Shown: positions 19,132 through 55,652, numbered from the stretch's first letter. The stretch: 64,000 bases of DNA from Candidatus Gastranaerophilales bacterium (GCA_028696075.1 JAQVHS010000001.1:194408-258407), one strand, 5' to 3'. Notes: generated by a model from the letters alone, not told the origin. Numbers and translations are program-made.

Positions 19132-19989
19132 ATGAATATCAATCAGGAGTACAAAATTTTATCATTTTCAACATCTGAAACGAAAATGAAAAAAACTATG
19201 GGGAATTTAACGTTAGAAGCGGTTGAATCAGGCGAAATTTTTAACGCAAAGCTTTGGGAAGAAGATTTAAACAAATACGAAAAAAGATATTTCAAGGCCA
19301 ATAATATAGTATACGTTGAGGAAGGCACATATTCAGAACAGTACAAAAATCTGATAATAAAAAGAATGACCCTTGTAAAAGAAACGCTTGCAGGCTTGTC
19401 AAAAACGCAAGTTGATGAGCTTTTTACACATTTAACAGGGGTTATTGATTTAATAAAAAACGACGGTTATCGTTTAGCCTTGAAAGAACTTTATTTAGAA
19501 TATGAAGACCTTTTAAAAATCGCGCCCGCAGCCAAAAACAACCACCATAATTATGTAGGCGGTTTAATTGAACATATATCGGAGTGTGTCTGCATTGCAA
19601 AGGCTAATTTTGATTGTTTTATACGTCCTGTTGATGAAGATTTAATAATTACAGCCTGTTTAATGCACGATTTTGGGAAAATTTTTGAATACAAAATTGA
19701 TGTTGAATCAGGGTTTGTCGAAGTGGACGAAAGTTTTATCAAACGCTGGGTGAGCCATACGCAGTACGGTTTTGCGTGGGCTAATCAAAACGAATTTTAT
19801 GACCTTGCAAGAATTATAGCAGGACACCACGGACGCAAAGACTGGGGCGCCATTATTGACCTGGACGAAAAAAATCTTGAGCCTGAAATTTATTTAATGC
19901 ATCATATCGATGATATTTCAGCAAAATTCGGCGCTATTACAACAGCGGATATTGAAAATATTAAAGAAGTTGGGCAGCTGGGAAGCTGA
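19132..19989 (+). CDS. OB-fold plus HD-domain phosphohydrolase (YhaM-like 3'-5' exoribonuclease family)
   Basis: NHHNYVGGLIEHISECV and LMHDFGKI / GHHGRKDWGA HD-domain motifs, with an N-terminal OB-like region. The last 8 codons and the stop lie in an intergenic-type repeat. Confidence 0.6.
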   Translation: MNINQEYKILSFSTSETKMKKTMGNLTLEAVESGEIFNAKLWEEDLNKYEKRYFKANNIVYVEEGTYSEQYKNLIIKRMTLVKETLAGLSKTQVDELFTHLTGVIDLIKNDGYRLALKELYLEYEDLLKIAPAAKNNHHNYVGGLIEHISECVCIAKANFDCFIRPVDEDLIITACLMHDFGKIFEYKIDVESGFVEVDESFIKRWVSHTQYGFAWANQNEFYDLARIIAGHHGRKDWGAIIDLDEKNLEPEIYLMHHIDDISAKFGAITTADIENIKEVGQLGS

Positions 19990-20120
19990 GCAGCTGAGAG
20001 TTTAAGAGGTGAAGGGCTTAAGAGTTGTCATAGCAAAAAAAGCTGTCATACTGAACTTGGTTCAGTATCTATCCATACCTATTGGTAAGATGCTTATCTT
20101 GCTTCGCTTCTCGACATAAC
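19966..20120 (+). repeat. copy of the modular AGCTGRGA / ttaagaggtgaa / hairpin repeat family
   Basis: gaagttgggcagctgggaagctgagcagctgagagtttaagaggtgaagggcttaagagttgtcat...gtcatactgaacttggttcagtatc. Same word order as the loci at 15490, 42033, 52878, 53181 and 53428. Confidence 0.75.
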
Positions 20121-42016: not shown

Positions 42017-42032
42017 CAAAAATCAGCTTAAT

Positions 42033-42089
42033 GGTTGAAGAGGTGAAGAGGTGAAAAGCTTAAGGAAGCTCGGCAGCTGGGAAGCTGAG
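42033..42089 (+). repeat. copy of the modular intergenic repeat family
   Basis: ggttgaagaggtgaagaggtgaaaagcttaaggaagctcggcagctgggaagctgag, starting 17 nt after the rseP stop. Confidence 0.7.
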
Positions 42090-42129
42090 TTTATGTAGGT
42101 TAGGTTTTAACCCAACTTACTTGGTAGCG

Positions 42130-52074: not shown

Positions 52075-52878
52075 ATGAAAATAGGCTTTATCGGAGCAGG
52101 AAAATTAGGAAGTTCAATAATAGAAGGATTGAAAAAATCATCGCTGCAAGCAGAAATTACCGCATACGACCCTCATTCGGTTTTTTTAGAAAATCTGGTT
52201 CAAACATACGGCTTAAAAACCGCCGCTGATAATGCCGATTTGGTGAATAGTTCAGATGTGGTTGTAATCGCTCTAAAACCTGCTATTGTTGGTGAAGCAG
52301 TGAAAGAATTAAAGAACTTGTTCAAAGACAAACTTGTAATATCCCTGGCCGCAGGGGTAAACACGTCAGATGTAGAAGAAATTGCGCCTGATATTTGTAT
52401 CGCAAGAGTTTTAACCAATACTCCAAGCGCTTTTGGCGTGGGGATGTCAACGATTTCTAAAGGCAGAAATTTAAGCGAAGCGCAGCTTGAACTTTGCAAA
52501 GATATTTTTACTCAAGTCGGCGAAGTCATAGTCATAGACGAAAAATTTATGGATATTTCAACCTCTTTGGCAGGCAGCGGTCCCGCTTTCTTTTATGCCG
52601 TGGCACAAGGGTTCGCTAAAGGTTGTGAAAAGCTTGGTATGAGTGAAAAAGATGCTATTTTACTTTCCGCACAAACAATGCTTGGCGCTGCCAAAATGAT
52701 TACCTCTTCAGGTCAAACACCGGAAGAATTAATCAAACGTGTCGCAACCCCCGGCGGCTGTACCATAGAGGGATTAAATTATTTAGCAAGCCAAAATCTT
52801 GAAAAGATTTTAATCGAGTGTATGGAAGTTACTGCCAAAAAAGCAGCTATCCTGGCACATATAGGGAAAGAGGGCTAG
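52075..52878 (+). CDS. proC: pyrroline-5-carboxylate reductase
   Basis: IGFIGAGKLGSSI NADP-binding fold. C-terminal VATPGGCTIEGL motif. Confidence 0.9.
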   Translation: MKIGFIGAGKLGSSIIEGLKKSSLQAEITAYDPHSVFLENLVQTYGLKTAADNADLVNSSDVVVIALKPAIVGEAVKELKNLFKDKLVISLAAGVNTSDVEEIAPDICIARVLTNTPSAFGVGMSTISKGRNLSEAQLELCKDIFTQVGEVIVIDEKFMDISTSLAGSGPAFFYAVAQGFAKGCEKLGMSEKDAILLSAQTMLGAAKMITSSGQTPEELIKRVATPGGCTIEGLNYLASQNLEKILIECMEVTAKKAAILAHIGKEG

Positions 52879-52926
52879 GAAGCTTGGCAGCTGAGAAGCT
52901 GAGATTGGGTTTAAGAGCTTAAAAAA

Positions 52927-53084
52927 GCAGGCTTTACGATATAGGATAGAACGCTATTCACTGTGTGAAATCAGAGTATTACTTTGCCTAACGACATTTT
53001 TAACCACTTAGGCTAAGTTATGCTCTGATTGAGTTTGAATAGCACCAGACTTTAGAAATAAACTTTAATAGTAGTAAAGCCTGC
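52927..53084. other. 158-nt nested-helix element (candidate structured RNA or hairpin-type MITE)
   Basis: Four nested complementary pairs. gcaggctttac 52927-37 pairs with gtaaagcctgc 53074-84. gctattca 52953-60 pairs with tgaatagc 53036-43. aatcagagtat 52969-79 pairs with atgctctgatt 53020-30 (one G-U). actttgcctaa 52981-91 pairs with ttaggctaagt 53008-18 (one mismatch). Confidence 0.5.
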
Positions 53085-53105
53085 GACAGAACCCAACTAA
53101 GCGTA

Positions 53106-53165
53106 TTTTTTCTTTTTCTTTGGTTCGTTTCTTTTTCTTTTTGTTCGCATAAAAAGAAAAAGAAA
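53106..53165 (+). other. triple-helix-competent module: mirror pyrimidine tracts plus complementary purine tract
   Basis: T6CT5CT3 (53106-53121), ggttcg, T3CT5CT5 (53128-53142), gttcgcat, A5GA5GA3 (53151-53165). Tract 2 is the exact complement of the purine tract. Tract 1 is the exact mirror of tract 2. Confidence 0.6.
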
Positions 53166-53180
53166 TGGACAATCAATATA

Positions 53181-53546
53181 GCAGCTGAGAAGCTGGGATT
53201 GAGCTTAAGGAAGCTTGGCAGCTAAGAAGCTGGGAAGAGGTGAAGTCTTCTTAATGTCATGCTGAATTTATTTCAGCATCTCATTATTGTACGTCGATAT
53301 AAACCAGGCTCAACCATGCGACCCTGAAACAAGTTCAGGGTGACAGCCTTATTGTCATACTGGGAGGCTGGGAGATTATTTTGCCGTCATTGCGAAAATG
53401 TGTAAGCATTTGAAGCAATCCATAGGAAAGAAGCTTGGCAGCTGAGAAGCTGGGAAGCTGTGATTGAGTTTAAGAGGTGAAAAGGAAGTTGGGCAGCTGA
53501 GAAGTTGGGAAGCTGAGAGGGTGAAGGGATGAAGAGCTTAAGAGTT
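53181..53546 (+). repeat. dense cluster of the modular intergenic repeat family plus hairpin modules
   Basis: AGCTGRGA-type words, ttaagaggtgaaaag and gtgaagagcttaag words. Hairpins gtcatgctgaatttatttcagcat (53256-53279), accctgaaacaagttcagggt (53321-53341) and gtcattgcgaaaatgtgtaagcatttgaagcaatc. Confidence 0.8.
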
Positions 53547-53572
53547 CATTGTAGCCTTCGGCAAGTCTTTTC

Positions 53573-53750
53573 AGGCTTCACACTCTGCTTGCGCATTTTT
53601 CCGCCTGTGCAATCATTGAAAGCGAAATTGCTGTCGCAATTTGTTTCAATGTAGATTGCTTCGCTCCGCAACGGCGGTGGTATTATGCTTGCTACAAAGC
53701 CTGCTCACCGCAGCCTTTTTGCAGCGCATCGGCTTCACACTCTGCTTGCG
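53573..53750 (+). repeat. 20-nt direct repeats (ggcttcacactctgcttgcg) 158 nt apart
   Basis: Identical 20-mers at 53573-53592 and 53731-53750, enclosing a hairpin-rich segment (gattgcttcgctccgcaacggcgg etc.). Confidence 0.8.
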
Positions 53751-53957
53751 GCGCATAAAAAAACCCAAGGGTTTGATTAATTCCGTGGGCTGGGTAATAA
53801 GGGGTATTTAGGGTTTAATTAAAATCTCTCTTAAAATCTCTCTATGTGATTTCTTAGCTCTCATACTTTATTAAAAACATTTCAGCATAAAAGATTGCCA
53901 TATTAAGTATATACTTTCTTAATACAACTTAACGATATGGGATGAACTCAAGCTATA

Positions 53958-55652
53958 TCAGGCTTCTTCCTTATCAAAAAACTTTAAAATTTTTGATAAC
54001 AGATTATTTTCATAAGGGTTTTGCACATGCGATTCGAGCTGTTTTATACGTGATTTGACATGCTCATCGTCGGTACAAAGGTTAGAATTCTCGTCATAAT
54101 ACTTATAATTCTCAAGCGCGGCGTCAAAATCCTTCATTTGATAAAGACAATCCGCATTGAGCAAATAAAATTCAAAATCCTTTGTCCCTTCATCAAGAAT
54201 ACTTTGCAATTTTAAATGCGCCAAATCGTATTCTTTTTGAGCAATATGAATTTTTGACGCTTCTTTCACCGCAAATTCCCTGTCAGGCTCATGCTCTGCC
54301 AGCCTTTCGTAAAAATCAAGCGCCTGATATTTTTCCTCTCCTTGTGCTTGAAGGTTAGCAAGTTTTTTTATGGCCTGATAATCCTTATCATCATAATGAA
54401 CCGCCCACGTAAATTCATCGATTGCGTCCTGAATTTCACCTTTTAGCTGATGATAAAGCCCGAAATTATAATGAGCTTTGCTGTTATCGCCTTTAAGTTC
54501 GTACATTTGAGCCAATTTACGGTAACCTAAAGGGCTGTTAGGCAATTTTTTAATAATACGCTCGCAGTATTTTTGCGCTTCGTCAAAATCCTCTTCAAGC
54601 GAGTAGAACCCTGCCAAAGCCGTTAAAACTTCATTATCATCGGGTTGAAGCTTTTCGGTTTCAAGCAAAACTCTTTTTGTCTCTTCTTTTTTGGATTGTT
54701 TAAGATAAGCTTTTGCCAAATTGACATTAAGGCTTACGTTGTTCGGTTCCGCCATATGCAGCTTTTCATAAAGCTGCTGCGCTTCAAACATATGCTCGGT
54801 TTCAAGCAGTAAATCAGCCAGTTCCGTCATTGCTTTTTTGTTATCGGGATAAATTTTCAAAGCACGTTTCAGAACCTCAATAGCGGCATCAATATTATTC
54901 AATTCAGTGTAGATTTCTGCAAGCTCCATAAACACATTAAAATTTTCTTCCGTCATACCGAGGATTGCAAGATATTCGTCCAATGCGTTATGAAATTTTT
55001 TCTTATCCTTATAGCATTTCGCAAGCCTGTATCTGACGGTTAAAACATCCTGCTCATCCTGCGCCAAAGACAAAGCCCTCTTGTACTCGCTCTCCATGTG
55101 GTTTAAAGACTTCTCAAGCTCAAAAATCCTTGCTCTTGTAAGGTGATACATAAGTTTATCCGTATGTTCATAAATTTCCGCAAGCTGCCTTAACGCCACG
55201 TCATTATCAGGAGTAATAGTAAGCAGTTTGTTATAATATTCCGCAGCTTCTTCCTTTTTGCCTAAAATCAAACAGGCATGCGCCAAAACCTCAATATTAT
55301 CCTGATTTTGAGGGTCAGCAGCATAGAGGTCTTTATAAACCGTATAAGCTAAATCATACCTGTCGGCATTTTCAAAAACCATAGCGACACGCTGCTGAAA
55401 TTCAGGCGCCATATCAGGGTTATAAACCCTTTCGTAGTAATCAGCGGCTTCCATAAAGTTGCCCTCTGATTCTAATATTTGTCCCATAATAAAACAGGCA
55501 TGGGGATGGTTCGGCTCAACGGTTATAAACTTCATCAGATAAATTTTTGCATTGTCCAAGTCATTATTGTTCAAATATTCAAAAACTTTTTCTACCCTGG
55601 CATCGTAGGTCTTAAGAGTGATTTCGCCTGCCGCTGAATTTGGTTCGTCCAT
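53958..55652 (-). CDS. TPR-repeat protein
   Basis: ATG 55652 with a GGGGGG RBS, 2 nt after the upstream stop; the track start is 55676. Repeated 34-residue A/Y/L-patterned helices throughout (…AIEVLKRALKIYPDNKKAMTELADLL…). Confidence 0.8.
   Translation of the reverse strand: MDEPNSAAGEITLKTYDARVEKVFEYLNNNDLDNAKIYLMKFITVEPNHPHACFIMGQILESEGNFMEAADYYERVYNPDMAPEFQQRVAMVFENADRYDLAYTVYKDLYAADPQNQDNIEVLAHACLILGKKEEAAEYYNKLLTITPDNDVALRQLAEIYEHTDKLMYHLTRARIFELEKSLNHMESEYKRALSLAQDEQDVLTVRYRLAKCYKDKKKFHNALDEYLAILGMTEENFNVFMELAEIYTELNNIDAAIEVLKRALKIYPDNKKAMTELADLLLETEHMFEAQQLYEKLHMAEPNNVSLNVNLAKAYLKQSKKEETKRVLLETEKLQPDDNEVLTALAGFYSLEEDFDEAQKYCERIIKKLPNSPLGYRKLAQMYELKGDNSKAHYNFGLYHQLKGEIQDAIDEFTWAVHYDDKDYQAIKKLANLQAQGEEKYQALDFYERLAEHEPDREFAVKEASKIHIAQKEYDLAHLKLQSILDEGTKDFEFYLLNADCLYQMKDFDAALENYKYYDENSNLCTDDEHVKSRIKQLESHVQNPYENNLLSKILKFFDKEEA

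What the first reader, a model, noticed from the sequence alone, without database searches (positions are those of the whole stretch)
53106..53165. Perfect 15-position triple-helix module: two mirror-symmetric pyrimidine tracts plus the complementary purine tract on one strand
The + strand reads T6CT5CT3 (53106-53121) - GGTTCG - T3CT5CT5 (53128-53142) - GTTCGCAT - A5GA5GA3 (53151-53165). Tract 2 is the exact Watson-Crick complement of the purine tract, giving a 15-bp hairpin. Tract 1, minus its first T, is the exact mirror image of tract 2. It therefore matches the purine tract 5'-3' position by position, with T opposite A and C opposite G. This is the geometry needed for a parallel pyrimidine-motif triplex (13 U*A-U plus 2 C+*G-C triples) folded as a paperclip from a single strand. 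Both connecting loops contain GTTCG. An ordinary terminator or a low-complexity tract does not need simultaneous mirror and inverted symmetry. Nor does it need both C/G interruptions kept in register in all three tracts. No U-run follows the hairpin on either strand. Known RNA triple helices of this style (MALAT1 and the KSHV PAN ENE, which protect 3' ends) are eukaryotic or viral and shorter. I know of no bacterial counterpart. In duplex DNA the mirror repeat is also a canonical H-DNA former, which could act as a replication or recombination hotspot. The module lies 21 nt downstream of a 158-nt nested-helix element, inside a repeat-flanked non-coding island after proC.
Basis: partly seen in the sequence, partly recalled or inferred. 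Interest (0 to 1): 0.78.

Follow-up and report, generated by a model that had tools for sequence, protein, structure and literature searches.

The report
A/T-rich intrastrand triplex repeat module
The three matching T-rich and A-rich tracts are real, and they are one copy of a short intergenic element that recurs in gut Melainabacteria, Bacteroidales and other microbes; its design lets one strand fold into a hairpin with a third strand, a kind of element already described in bacteria as DNA but never given a function.

Summary
This copy alone is weak evidence. A T-run with two interruptions is mirror-symmetric almost automatically, and tract 1 plus its linker also reads as a 19-nt tandem repeat.

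Comparison settles the question. A metagenome scan found more than 120 hairpins with these arms. About half carry a third tract in the same order. Where arms are asymmetric, the third tract is the mirror of the arm rather than a direct copy (41 mirror, 1 direct, 22 ties). C positions and T-run lengths move together in all three tracts. Near-identical modules occur several times per genome in Candidatus Gastranaerophilales whose proteins are only about 45% identical to this genome's.

The element is not tied to any gene, is not a terminator and matches no Rfam family. Here it lies in a repeat island at a synteny break after proC.

It belongs to a known kind: intrastrand triplex motifs (PIT/BoxC/TMECO, ITxF class IV on +, class II on -). 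So "no bacterial counterpart" is wrong for DNA. An RNA triple helix like that of MALAT1 remains possible: the stem is far more stable as + strand RNA. It is untested.

The parts
53106..53121 (+). Tract 1: T6CT5CT3, the candidate third (Hoogsteen) strand. It runs parallel to, and in register with, the purine tract.
   Evidence: A mirror relation to tract 2 holds across the element family. The tract is conserved as T5CT5CT3 in Gastranaerophilales relatives.
53122..53122 (+). One-nucleotide connector (G) between tract 1 and the clamp.
   Evidence: unpaired in the minimum-energy fold. Connectors of 0-2 nt recur in related modules.
53123..53127 (+). Clamp, 5' strand: GTTCG. It pairs with 53166-53170 through 3 Watson-Crick and 2 G.U pairs on the + strand.
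   Evidence: (I2). Compensatory changes in the clamp and an invariant G.T at the junction in related modules.
53128..53142 (+). Tract 2: T3CT5CT5, the Watson-Crick pyrimidine arm of the hairpin.
53143..53150 (+). Hairpin loop GTTCGCAT. In + strand RNA, G53143.U53150 and U53144:A53149 close it to a 4-nt loop UCGC.
   Evidence: The loop sequence is not conserved; relatives have GCGTC.
53151..53165 (+). Tract 3: A5GA5GA3, the purine arm of the hairpin and the strand that would be read by both pyrimidine tracts.
53166..53170 (+). Clamp, 3' strand: TGGAC.
   Evidence: (I2). Relatives have TGAAC, so the A-to-G change keeps pairing only on the + strand.
52927..53084 (.). Context, not shown to be part of the element: a 158-nt nested helix 21 nt upstream. 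It is unique, with no homologue in the window or in the fetched loci. On the minus strand its outer stem is followed by T6 (52921-52926).
52868..53545 (.). Context: a mosaic island of (GAAGCTGR)n octamer repeats and REP-like hairpins. It includes GACCCTGAAACAAGTTCAGGGTGACA at 53320-53345, which also sits next to the module in relatives L144 and L160.
52075..52878 (+). Context: proC, the upstream co-directional gene. Synteny with relatives ends at its stop codon.

Best explanation
53106-53170 is one copy of a conserved, dispersed intergenic element. Its defining property is that a single strand carries three blocks in order: a Hoogsteen-type pyrimidine tract, a Watson-Crick pyrimidine tract and the purine tract. 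This makes it an A/T-rich intrastrand triplex motif (ITxF class IV on the + strand, class II on the - strand), the A/T-rich counterpart of E. coli BoxC/PIT/TMECO.

Proposed mechanism. When the + strand is single-stranded, most probably as RNA read through from proC, tracts 2 and 3 plus the GUUCG/UGGAC clamp zip into a 22-bp hairpin. Tract 1, joined by a 1-nt connector that crosses the deep groove of the 5-bp clamp (as loop 1 does in an H-type pseudoknot), can lie in the major groove. This would give up to 13 U.A-U and 2 C+.G-C triples. The product would be a compact roadblock for 3'-to-5' exonucleases and helicases. It would stabilise and insulate the upstream message. As single-stranded DNA it could stall polymerases and favour rearrangement. 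It is a generic structural module of repeat islands, not a proC-specific regulator and not a terminator.

Shown: the symmetry, its recurrence, mirror covariation, strand asymmetry of the stem, several copies per genome in relatives, no gene linkage, and a position at a synteny break.

Inferred: that the triplex forms, that RNA is the folding molecule, and the roadblock role.
For: - Exact symmetry, and non-random against shuffles.
- More than 120 metagenome hairpins share these arms. Of 130 non-redundant pyrimidine-purine hairpins in the fetched loci, 64 have a third tract in this block order, against 5 in the control order. Mirror beats direct copy 41 to 1, with 22 ties.
- Unambiguous mirror cases have unequal C spacing: L111 T5CT5CT3CT2 / T2CT3CT5CT4, L107 T6CT3CT4C / CT4CT3CT5, L201 T3CT4CT5 / T5CT4CT3, L102, L103.
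- The module is about 93% identical, apart from the loop, in Candidatus Gastranaerophilales contigs. An orthologous protein is only 45% identical. There are at least 2 copies per contig or assembly.
- The stem is far more stable on the + strand as RNA (-24.1 against -13.4 kcal/mol) than the difference seen as DNA (-13.9 against -12.0). The same bias holds in 46 of 55 informative modules.
- The clamp shows compensatory changes and an invariant G.T at the junction.
- No recurrent neighbouring gene family, and the downstream genes are unrelated.
- Among modules with strong strand asymmetry, the upstream gene is co-oriented in 9 of 12 (my cross-tabulation).
- The kind is documented. Isolated strands of BoxC/TMECO form triplexes in vitro, and pyrimidine-type intrastrand triplexes can form in RNA whereas purine-type ones cannot (PMC4666352).
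Against: - No expression data exist for this organism, and triplex formation was not measured.
- Over all modules, orientation relative to flanking genes is close to random: upstream co 22 against anti 16, both neighbours co 10 against both anti 7.
- Next to tRNA genes, the tRNA-sense strand reads hairpin then purine tract.
My deep-groove connector geometry is an inference by analogy, not a model.
- For E. coli TMECO no in vivo triplex footprint and no promoter or terminator activity was found.
- Only one copy lies in this 64-kb window, and none in about 80 kb of unbiased sequence from relatives at about 50% identity.
- In one lineage (L092 and similar) tract 1 has decayed while the hairpin is kept.
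- U-rich flanks have more pairing partners than A-rich ones, which inflates part of the strand asymmetry.
Confidence: 0.5

Rival explanations
1. DNA-level element only. The same three-tract design folds in transiently single-stranded DNA (lagging-strand template, displaced non-template strand) or as H-DNA or a cruciform under supercoiling. It stalls replication or repair and promotes local rearrangement, or it is the recognised structure of a REP-like selfish repeat spread by a transposase acting on single-stranded DNA. Any RNA fold is incidental.
For: - This is the view in the literature for BoxC/PIT/TMECO, including an association with genomic instability.
- No orientation bias relative to genes.
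- The module sits in a mosaic of REP-like repeats that are also conserved across distant genomes.
- It lies exactly where synteny with relatives breaks: proC-ilvD in relatives, proC-repeat island here, with no ilvD remnant.
- Several copies per genome and a longer shared repeat unit in relatives.
- Pairs in inverted orientation.
Against: - The G.U-dependent stem asymmetry is large for RNA (10.7 kcal/mol) and small for DNA (1.9 kcal/mol).
- Connectors of 0-2 nt fit an A-form deep groove better than B-form DNA (inference).
- Duplex-level H-DNA needs only the mirror repeat, not the purine tract on the same strand.
- No transposase or integrase is linked to the modules.
- TMECO gave no in vivo triplex footprint.
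Confidence: 0.3
2. Plain hairpin plus extra T-rich or A-rich tract with a conventional role. Examples: a 3' stabilising hairpin, a bidirectional or oligo-T termination signal (especially in the archaeal-looking contigs), or an Hfq/S1-type A/U-rich binding platform. The mirror register would then be a side effect of a period-6 design, and no triplex would form.
For: - Both orientations occur 4-20 nt after stop codons.
- In archaeal-looking contigs the T-rich arm starts 3-7 nt after purH or tRNA genes.
- About half of the hairpins with these arms have no third tract.
- One lineage keeps the hairpin but lets tract 1 decay.
Against: - No T-run follows the hairpin on either strand here, and the stem is A/U-rich. 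The organism has canonical terminators, such as GACTCTC...GAGTGTC followed by T6 beside tRNA-His.
- Protein or polymerase signals read 5' to 3' and do not predict mirror order. Yet non-periodic arms are mirrored exactly.
- A type-B module sits inside an rpoA-sized ORF/rplQ gene pair, where a terminator would be harmful.
Confidence: 0.12
3. Mutational by-product. A (T5C)n/(A5G)n microsatellite hairpin whose 5' arm plus linker was tandemly duplicated by slippage. The three-way symmetry would be automatic and unselected.
For: - 53109-53127 and 53128-53147 form a 19-20-nt direct repeat that includes the asymmetric GTTCG.
- Tandem Repeats Finder reports period-6 TTTTTC x5.8 and AAAAAG x2.5.
- Any T-run with two interruptions is mirror-symmetric about their midpoint (what the sequence shows directly).
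Against: - The same module is conserved in genomes about 45% identical at protein level, and there the second GTTCG is absent.
- T-run lengths are mirrored (T6...T3 | T3...T5), not copied.
- Across families mirror beats direct 41 to 1, including non-periodic arms that slippage cannot produce.
Confidence: 0.05
4. Coding or leader-peptide feature: a Phe-rich reading on the + strand, or a Lys/Arg-rich small ORF on the - strand (53176-53018, 52 aa; 53172-53065, 35 aa).
For: - Weak sub-threshold Rfam hits to Phe_leader.
- ORFs are listed on the - strand.
Against: - No start codon for the + strand Phe-rich frame.
- No Pfam match for either - strand ORF.
- No biosynthetic gene lies downstream.
- Related modules differ in frame and flanks.
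Confidence: 0.02

Closest known systems
Potential intrastrand triplex (PIT) elements, BoxC/TMECO repeats of E. coli, and the ITxF classes (Hoyne et al. 2000; Holder et al. 2015, PMC4666352)
   Same: Three consecutive homopurine or homopyrimidine blocks on one strand: pyrimidine arm, purine arm and a mirror third block. The order is the same (Y-R-R on one strand, Y-Y-R on the other). Both are intergenic, occur in several copies, have no linked gene function or orientation, and associate with variable loci.
   Different: TMECO is G/C-rich (CCCTCNCCC / GGGNGAGGG), has 9 triads, favours the purine motif (class II) and is proteobacterial. This element is A/T-rich with 15 triads. It favours the pyrimidine motif (class IV), which can also form in RNA. 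It has a conserved 5-bp clamp with G.U pairs, and it is found in Gastranaerophilales, Bacteroidales and archaeal-looking contigs. The exact 13-mer is not in the paper's held supplements.
MALAT1 / MEN-beta triple helix and viral or transposon ENEs (PAN RNA)
   Same: The order is U-rich Hoogsteen tract, U-rich Watson-Crick tract, then a genomically encoded A-rich tract. It would be a U.A-U stack with occasional C+.G-C. In some related modules (L103) the two U tracts are joined by a stem-loop, as in MALAT1.
   Different: Those elements are eukaryotic or viral, have 10 triples or fewer with a C-G reset, and need the A tract to be the mature 3' end (RNase P/mascRNA processing or a poly(A) tail). 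Here there is no evidence of a 3' end, no tRNA-like element downstream, no Rfam match and no orientation bias relative to genes.
H-DNA-forming homopurine.homopyrimidine mirror repeats
   Same: Tract 1 and tract 2 form a perfect pyrimidine mirror repeat with a 6-nt spacer, the classical H-y substrate.
   Different: H-DNA needs only the mirror repeat in duplex DNA. This family also keeps the complementary purine tract on the same strand, which points to folding of a single strand.
REP/BIME-type mosaic extragenic repeats
   Same: Short structured modules scattered in intergenic islands, combined with other small hairpin repeats. They are conserved in sequence across diverged genomes. REP hairpins are known barriers to 3' exonucleases (established knowledge).
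   Different: REPs are simple imperfect palindromes recognised by RAYT transposases. No such enzyme was linked here, and the third mirror tract has no REP equivalent.
Triple-helix pseudoknots of SAM-II and preQ1-II riboswitches and telomerase RNA
   Same: U.A-U major-groove triples in bacterial RNAs. A short connector crosses the deep groove.
   Different: Those have a few ligand-dependent triples inside 5'-UTR pseudoknots upstream of specific genes. This would be a long, ligand-free stack in a gene-independent element.

Membership tests
Intrastrand triplex motif (PIT / ITxF class IV on +, class II on -) | Three consecutive homopurine or homopyrimidine blocks on one strand | tested here: met
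   Y (53106-53121), Y (53128-53142), R (53151-53165).
Intrastrand triplex motif (PIT / ITxF class IV on +, class II on -) | The pyrimidine and purine blocks are antiparallel Watson-Crick complements | tested here: met
   tract 2 equals the reverse complement of tract 3, 15 of 15.
Intrastrand triplex motif (PIT / ITxF class IV on +, class II on -) | The third block obeys the Hoogsteen code in the right polarity (T over A, C over G, parallel to the purine block) | tested here: met
   15 of 15 in register. Family-wide, mirror beats direct 41 to 1.
   Stem 15 and loop 1 of 6 nt fit. Loop 2 is 8 nt, or 4 nt if the two closing pairs seen are counted.
Intrastrand triplex motif (PIT / ITxF class IV on +, class II on -) | The isolated strand forms a triplex in vitro (CD, NMR, UV melting) | not testable with these tools
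   ViennaRNA models secondary structure only.
E. coli BoxC / TMECO repeat family | Consensus CCCTCNCCC N3-6 GGGNGAGGG N3 GGGNGAGGG | tested here: not met
   The sequence is A/T-rich with a different consensus. It is analogous, not homologous.
E. coli BoxC / TMECO repeat family | Several intergenic copies with no link to gene function or orientation | tested here: met
   At least 2 copies per contig or assembly in relatives. No shared neighbouring genes. Orientation close to random. Only one copy in this 64-kb window.
MALAT1 / ENE-type RNA triple helix (3'-end stabiliser) | U-rich Hoogsteen tract, U-rich Watson-Crick tract and A-rich tract on one RNA in that order | tested here: met
   Met at sequence level on the + strand.
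MALAT1 / ENE-type RNA triple helix (3'-end stabiliser) | The A-rich tract is the mature 3' end (poly(A) tail, or cleavage next to a tRNA-like element) | tested here: inconclusive
   No tRNA-like element lies downstream. The 3' ends themselves cannot be mapped with these tools.
MALAT1 / ENE-type RNA triple helix (3'-end stabiliser) | Match to curated RNA family models | tested here: not met
   No Rfam family at gathering score. Below threshold there are only generic hairpin hits, and the BTnc231 hit is spurious.
MALAT1 / ENE-type RNA triple helix (3'-end stabiliser) | Transcribed in the sense that carries the two U-rich tracts | not testable with these tools
   proC is co-directional 228 nt upstream of tract 1. 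Family-wide orientation is unbiased.
Intrinsic (Rho-independent) terminator | G+C-rich stem directly followed by a U-run | tested here: not met
   no site called at the module, the stem is A/U-rich, and there is no T-run on either strand.
H-DNA mirror repeat | Homopurine.homopyrimidine mirror repeat with a short spacer | tested here: met
   Extrusion under supercoiling or low pH cannot be tested.
REP/BIME-type dispersed repeats | Dispersed palindromic units clustered in mosaic islands and mobilised by a RAYT-type transposase | tested here: inconclusive
   The mosaic island and a shared REP-like unit are present. No transposase was looked for in the whole genome, and none is linked in the loci.

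The most novel reading that the evidence does not exclude
The module would be the first long (10-17 triple) U.A-U/C+.G-C RNA triple helix family in prokaryotes. It would be a MALAT1-like, genomically encoded paperclip formed by + strand transcripts. The third strand would enter over a short clamp through the deep groove. It would shield mRNA or sRNA 3' regions from exonucleases, or act as a pH/Mg-sensitive switch. It would be widespread in Gastranaerophilales, Bacteroidales and some archaea.
Probability: 0.2. Interest if true: 0.85.

Novelty: new member of a known kind. Interest (0 to 1): 0.58.

Why it matters
Intrastrand triplex motifs have been catalogued in prokaryotes since 2000, but nobody has shown that the triplex geometry itself is selected. 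The comparison made here gives that evidence for an A/T-rich family: the mirror relation, not a direct copy, is kept when C positions, spacings and run lengths change. Unlike the G/C-rich E. coli motif, this family uses the pyrimidine motif, which RNA can also adopt. The question of whether bacteria use long RNA triple helices therefore becomes directly testable. Related modules occur in Bacteroidales (Phocaeicola/Bacteroides-like contigs), a group with cultivable members, where 3'-end mapping and mutagenesis are feasible. If the effect is at DNA level only, the element still marks a synteny break and may help explain repeat-island formation.

Tried and rejected
- Rfam at gathering and E-value thresholds on the window and on 31 related loci found no family. 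The repeated weak BTnc231 hits proved unrelated when the alignment was read.
- My first idea was a hairpin plus slippage duplication in a (T5C)n microsatellite. I rejected it after the metagenome comparison.
- Mobile element with a linked gene: all-against-all BLAST of flanking ORFs found no recurrent family. The genes between the two L082 modules are housekeeping (purH, a cytidylyltransferase, FKBP26), not an integrase.
- Phage origin: the viral scan with the strict pattern found 0 hits, and the loose pattern found 3, which I did not read; by position they appear to be the same places as metagenome hits L115 and L098, which carry no third tract.
- proC-specific regulator: relatives at about 50% identity have ilvD directly after proC, with no module in about 80 kb.
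- Terminator: no call at the site.
- Small ORFs and a Phe leader.
- Close relatives of this genome for locus-level comparison: none exist in the collections. The best proC match is 51% identical, and the genome scan gave 38%.
- A literature search for the 13-mer itself found nothing relevant.
- The nested helix has no homologue.

Full report
**Observation.** The + strand reads T6CT5CT3 (53106-53121), GGTTCG, T3CT5CT5 (53128-53142), GTTCGCAT, A5GA5GA3 (53151-53165). Tract 2 is the exact reverse complement of tract 3. Tract 1 without its first T is tract 2 read backwards.
- proC ends at 52878.
- A 158-nt nested helix occupies 52927-53084.
- The module starts 21 nt later.
- The next gene, a convergent TPR protein, ends at 53958.
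- No T-run follows the hairpin on either strand, and no terminator is called there.

Chance does not explain it. Three of the window's 21 homopurine or homopyrimidine tracts of at least 13 nt lie in these 60 nt. Pyrimidine-purine hairpins with arms of at least 10 nt occur 0.023 times per shuffled window. Three-tract modules under much laxer limits occur 7 times in 500 shuffles.

**Why this copy alone proves little.** The tracts are pieces of a period-6 (T5C)n/(A5G)n pattern. A T-run with two interruptions is mirror-symmetric about their midpoint by construction. In addition, 53109-53127 and 53128-53147 read as a tandem direct repeat that includes the asymmetric GTTCG. My first working explanation was therefore a hairpin plus a slippage duplication.

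The linker is also not a free loop. GTTCG (53123-53127) pairs with TGGAC (53166-53170). In + strand RNA the stem has 22 bp with a 4-nt loop.

**What the comparison showed.** The organism is an NCBI MAG of Candidatus Gastranaerophilales. Its nearest proC relatives are only about 51% identical, so homologous-locus comparison was impossible.

I spent the single metagenome scan on the arm pattern TTTCTTTTTCTTT N4-24 AAAGAAAAAGAAA. About half of the 103 non-redundant hits carry a third tract in the same block order as the window.

I then searched all fetched loci with a general detector, which found 130 non-redundant pyrimidine-purine hairpins.
- 64 have a third tract of the same polarity next to its own arm. 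Only 5 have the control arrangement.
- The third tract matches the mirror of the arm better than a direct copy in 41 cases, ties in 22 and loses in 1.

The decisive cases have unequal C spacing, which neither periodicity nor duplication can produce:

| Locus | Tract 1 | Tract 2 | Tract 3 |
|---|---|---|---|
| L111 | T5CT5CT3CT2 | T2CT3CT5CT4 | A4GA5GA3GA2 (the paired part of A6GA5GA3GA2) |
| L107 | T6CT3CT4C | CT4CT3CT5 | A5GA3GA4G |
| L201 | T3CT4CT5 | T5CT4CT3 | A3GA4GA5 |
| L102 | T3CT3CT4 | CCT4CT3CT3 | not listed |
| L103 | T4CT5CT2CT | TCT2CT5CT2 | not listed |

The T-run lengths next to the linker also change together: 3/3/3, 4/4/4 and 5/5/5. It rejects the slippage explanation.

**Relatives of this copy.** L085, L144, L160, L167 and L128 carry T5CT5CT3-GGTTCG-T3CT5CT5-GCGTC-A5GA5GA3-TGAAC.
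- L160 encodes a sigma factor deposited as Candidatus Gastranaerophilales.
- An orthologous protein in L128 is only 45% identical to the window's. Yet the module is about 93% identical outside the loop.
- Two copies lie on one 25.8-kb contig and two in another assembly. There the module is embedded in a shared unit of at least 200 nt.
- The REP-like hairpin GACCCTGAAACAAGTTCAGGGTGACA that follows the module in L144 and L160 is present in the window at 53320-53345.
- GTTCG in the second loop is specific to this genome.

**Other lineages.** A second type has a short third tract T4-5CT5, one G, then the hairpin. It occurs on contigs whose AsnB clusters with Phocaeicola sartorii and which carry the Bacteroidetes FopS sRNA. 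A third group looks archaeal: it has an FKBP26-type protein and a 118-nt tRNA gene, which suggests an intron. That assignment is an inference.

**What it is not.**
- It matches no Rfam family, and the weak BTnc231 hits are spurious.
- It is not linked to any gene family. Downstream genes include xerD-like, tatC, asnB, terminase, rplQ, folA, pckA and a sigma factor.
- It is not a phage feature.
- It is not coding.
- It is not specific to proC. Relatives keep RR-GGDEF/CheW/proC, but ilvD follows directly there. Here ilvD is absent without a remnant, and the repeat island takes its place. The module therefore lies at a synteny break.
- The island is one of four in the window built from (GAAGCTGR)n octamers and REP-like hairpins.

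**Which strand and which molecule.** As RNA, the hairpin with clamp is worth -24.1 kcal/mol on the + strand against -13.4 on the - strand. As DNA the values are -13.9 against -12.0. Across modules with a third tract, the strand with two pyrimidine tracts folds better in 46 cases and worse in 9. Part of this is the general advantage of U-rich flanks.

In the Gastranaerophilales-type modules the clamp shows compensatory changes (GGTTCG/TGAAC, GGTGCG/TGCAC, GGCACG/TGTG). It also has an invariant G.T at the junction on that strand. The window's TGGAC keeps pairing only on the + strand. These points favour folding of the + strand, and RNA more than DNA.

Against a sense-RNA role, orientation relative to flanking genes is near random overall. 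Beside tRNA genes, the tRNA-sense strand carries the purine version. Among modules with strong asymmetry the upstream gene is co-oriented in 9 of 12 (my cross-tabulation), which is only suggestive.

**Geometry (inference).** With the clamp closed, tract 1 is joined to the base of a 5-bp helix by a single G. In the second type, one G joins the third tract to a stem whose first 4 bp are not covered by the third strand. This recalls loop 1 of H-type pseudoknots, where 1-2 nt cross 6-7 bp of the deep groove of an A-form helix. Such a short connector would suit RNA better than B-form DNA.

**Comparison with what is known.** The block order defines an intrastrand triplex motif.
- Hoyne et al. (2000) described PIT elements. 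Holder et al. (2015) built the ITxF database with four classes. Class IV is Hoogsteen-pyrimidine-purine and class II is pyrimidine-purine-reverse Hoogsteen.
- The E. coli BoxC/TMECO repeat (CCCTCNCCC N3-6 GGGNGAGGG N3 GGGNGAGGG) forms a triplex as an isolated strand. It showed no promoter or terminator activity and no in vivo footprint, and it associates with locus variability.
- Those authors note that pyrimidine-type intrastrand triplexes can form in RNA while purine-type ones cannot.
- A 2026 review lists bacterial RNA triple helices only in riboswitches and group II introns.

The window's module is thus a new, A/T-rich, pyrimidine-motif member of a known kind. The claim of 'no bacterial counterpart' holds only for a MALAT1-like RNA role, which remains untested.

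**Verdict.**
- Best explanation (0.5): a conserved single-strand triplex-forming repeat module acting as a structural roadblock, most likely in + strand RNA.
- Main rival (0.3): the same fold matters only in DNA, for instability or selfish spread.
- The most novel reading, a prokaryotic RNA triple-helix family, has a probability of about 0.2.

Noticed in passing
window 15300-15980, 19945-20080, 42025-42100, 52868-53545: Four intergenic islands are built from purine-rich octamer repeats (GAAGCTGR)n plus REP-like hairpins (TGTCATGCTGAA..TTCAGCATC). The first island has three 126-127-nt tandem units. The Logan contig for proC breaks 60 nt after the gene, inside the first repeat.
   Followed up: partly
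window 52921-53084: A 158-nt nested helix that is strongly structured and unique, with no Rfam hit. On the minus strand its 11-bp outer stem is followed directly by T6 (52921-52926), so it could be the 3' end of a minus-strand RNA or a terminator for read-through from the TPR gene.
   Followed up: partly
window 52879-53957 compared with L205, L206, L208, L209: A synteny break. Relatives at about 50% identity have RR-GGDEF / CheW / proC / ilvD / a convergent gene of about 545 aa. Here ilvD is missing, with no remnant anywhere in the window, and the 1.08-kb repeat island occupies its place.
   Followed up: yes
window 53574-53593 and 53731-53750; 53819-53842: A perfect 20-nt direct repeat GGCTTCACACTCTGCTTGCG, with copies 157 nt apart, and a tandem TTAAAATCTCTC x2 just before the end of the TPR gene.
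   Followed up: no
window 53380-53416: The hairpin GTCATTGCGAAAATGTGTAAGCATTTGAAGCAATCC resembles the 'cattgcga...gaagcaatcc' small repeat that I recall as widespread in Cyanobacteria and Bacteroidetes metagenomes. This rests on memory and was not tested.
   Followed up: no
window 12590-12631 and 12843-12884: A 42-nt repeat (90% identical) containing a canonical terminator-like hairpin (GACTCTC..GAGTGTC followed by a T-run on the minus strand). One copy ends 2 nt from tRNA-His (12886-12961, minus strand) and the other lies about 255 nt away on the same side. This shows the organism uses ordinary intrinsic terminators.
   Followed up: no
window 1-64000: Cumulative GC skew rises to a maximum near 24-26 kb and then falls back to zero. 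This could be a replication landmark or just a switch in gene-strand bias.
   Followed up: no
L201 378-655, L107 102-464, L103 2144-2513, L174 517-1025, L082 6824-9731; arrays in L091, L102, L145: Triplex-type modules often come in pairs in inverted orientation, 200-450 nt apart (2.9 kb in L082), with the third tracts facing inward. They also occur in dense arrays. The L082 pair encloses housekeeping genes, not an integrase.
   Followed up: partly
L151 1117-1147: A second-type module lies 4 nt after an rpoA-sized ORF and 19 nt before rplQ, in the two-U-tract sense. Its purine arm runs into the GGAAGGAG just upstream of the rplQ start codon.
   Followed up: no
L085, L144, L160, L167, L128 (about 70 nt upstream and 60 nt downstream of the module): In Gastranaerophilales relatives the module is embedded in a conserved unit of at least 200 nt that occurs in several copies (…ACGAGGGGGTTCGGGGGCTTGCCCCTGACCGATATGTCAGTTTGTCATGTTCG[module]TGAACAAACGGTAAG…). 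Its nature was not determined.
   Followed up: no
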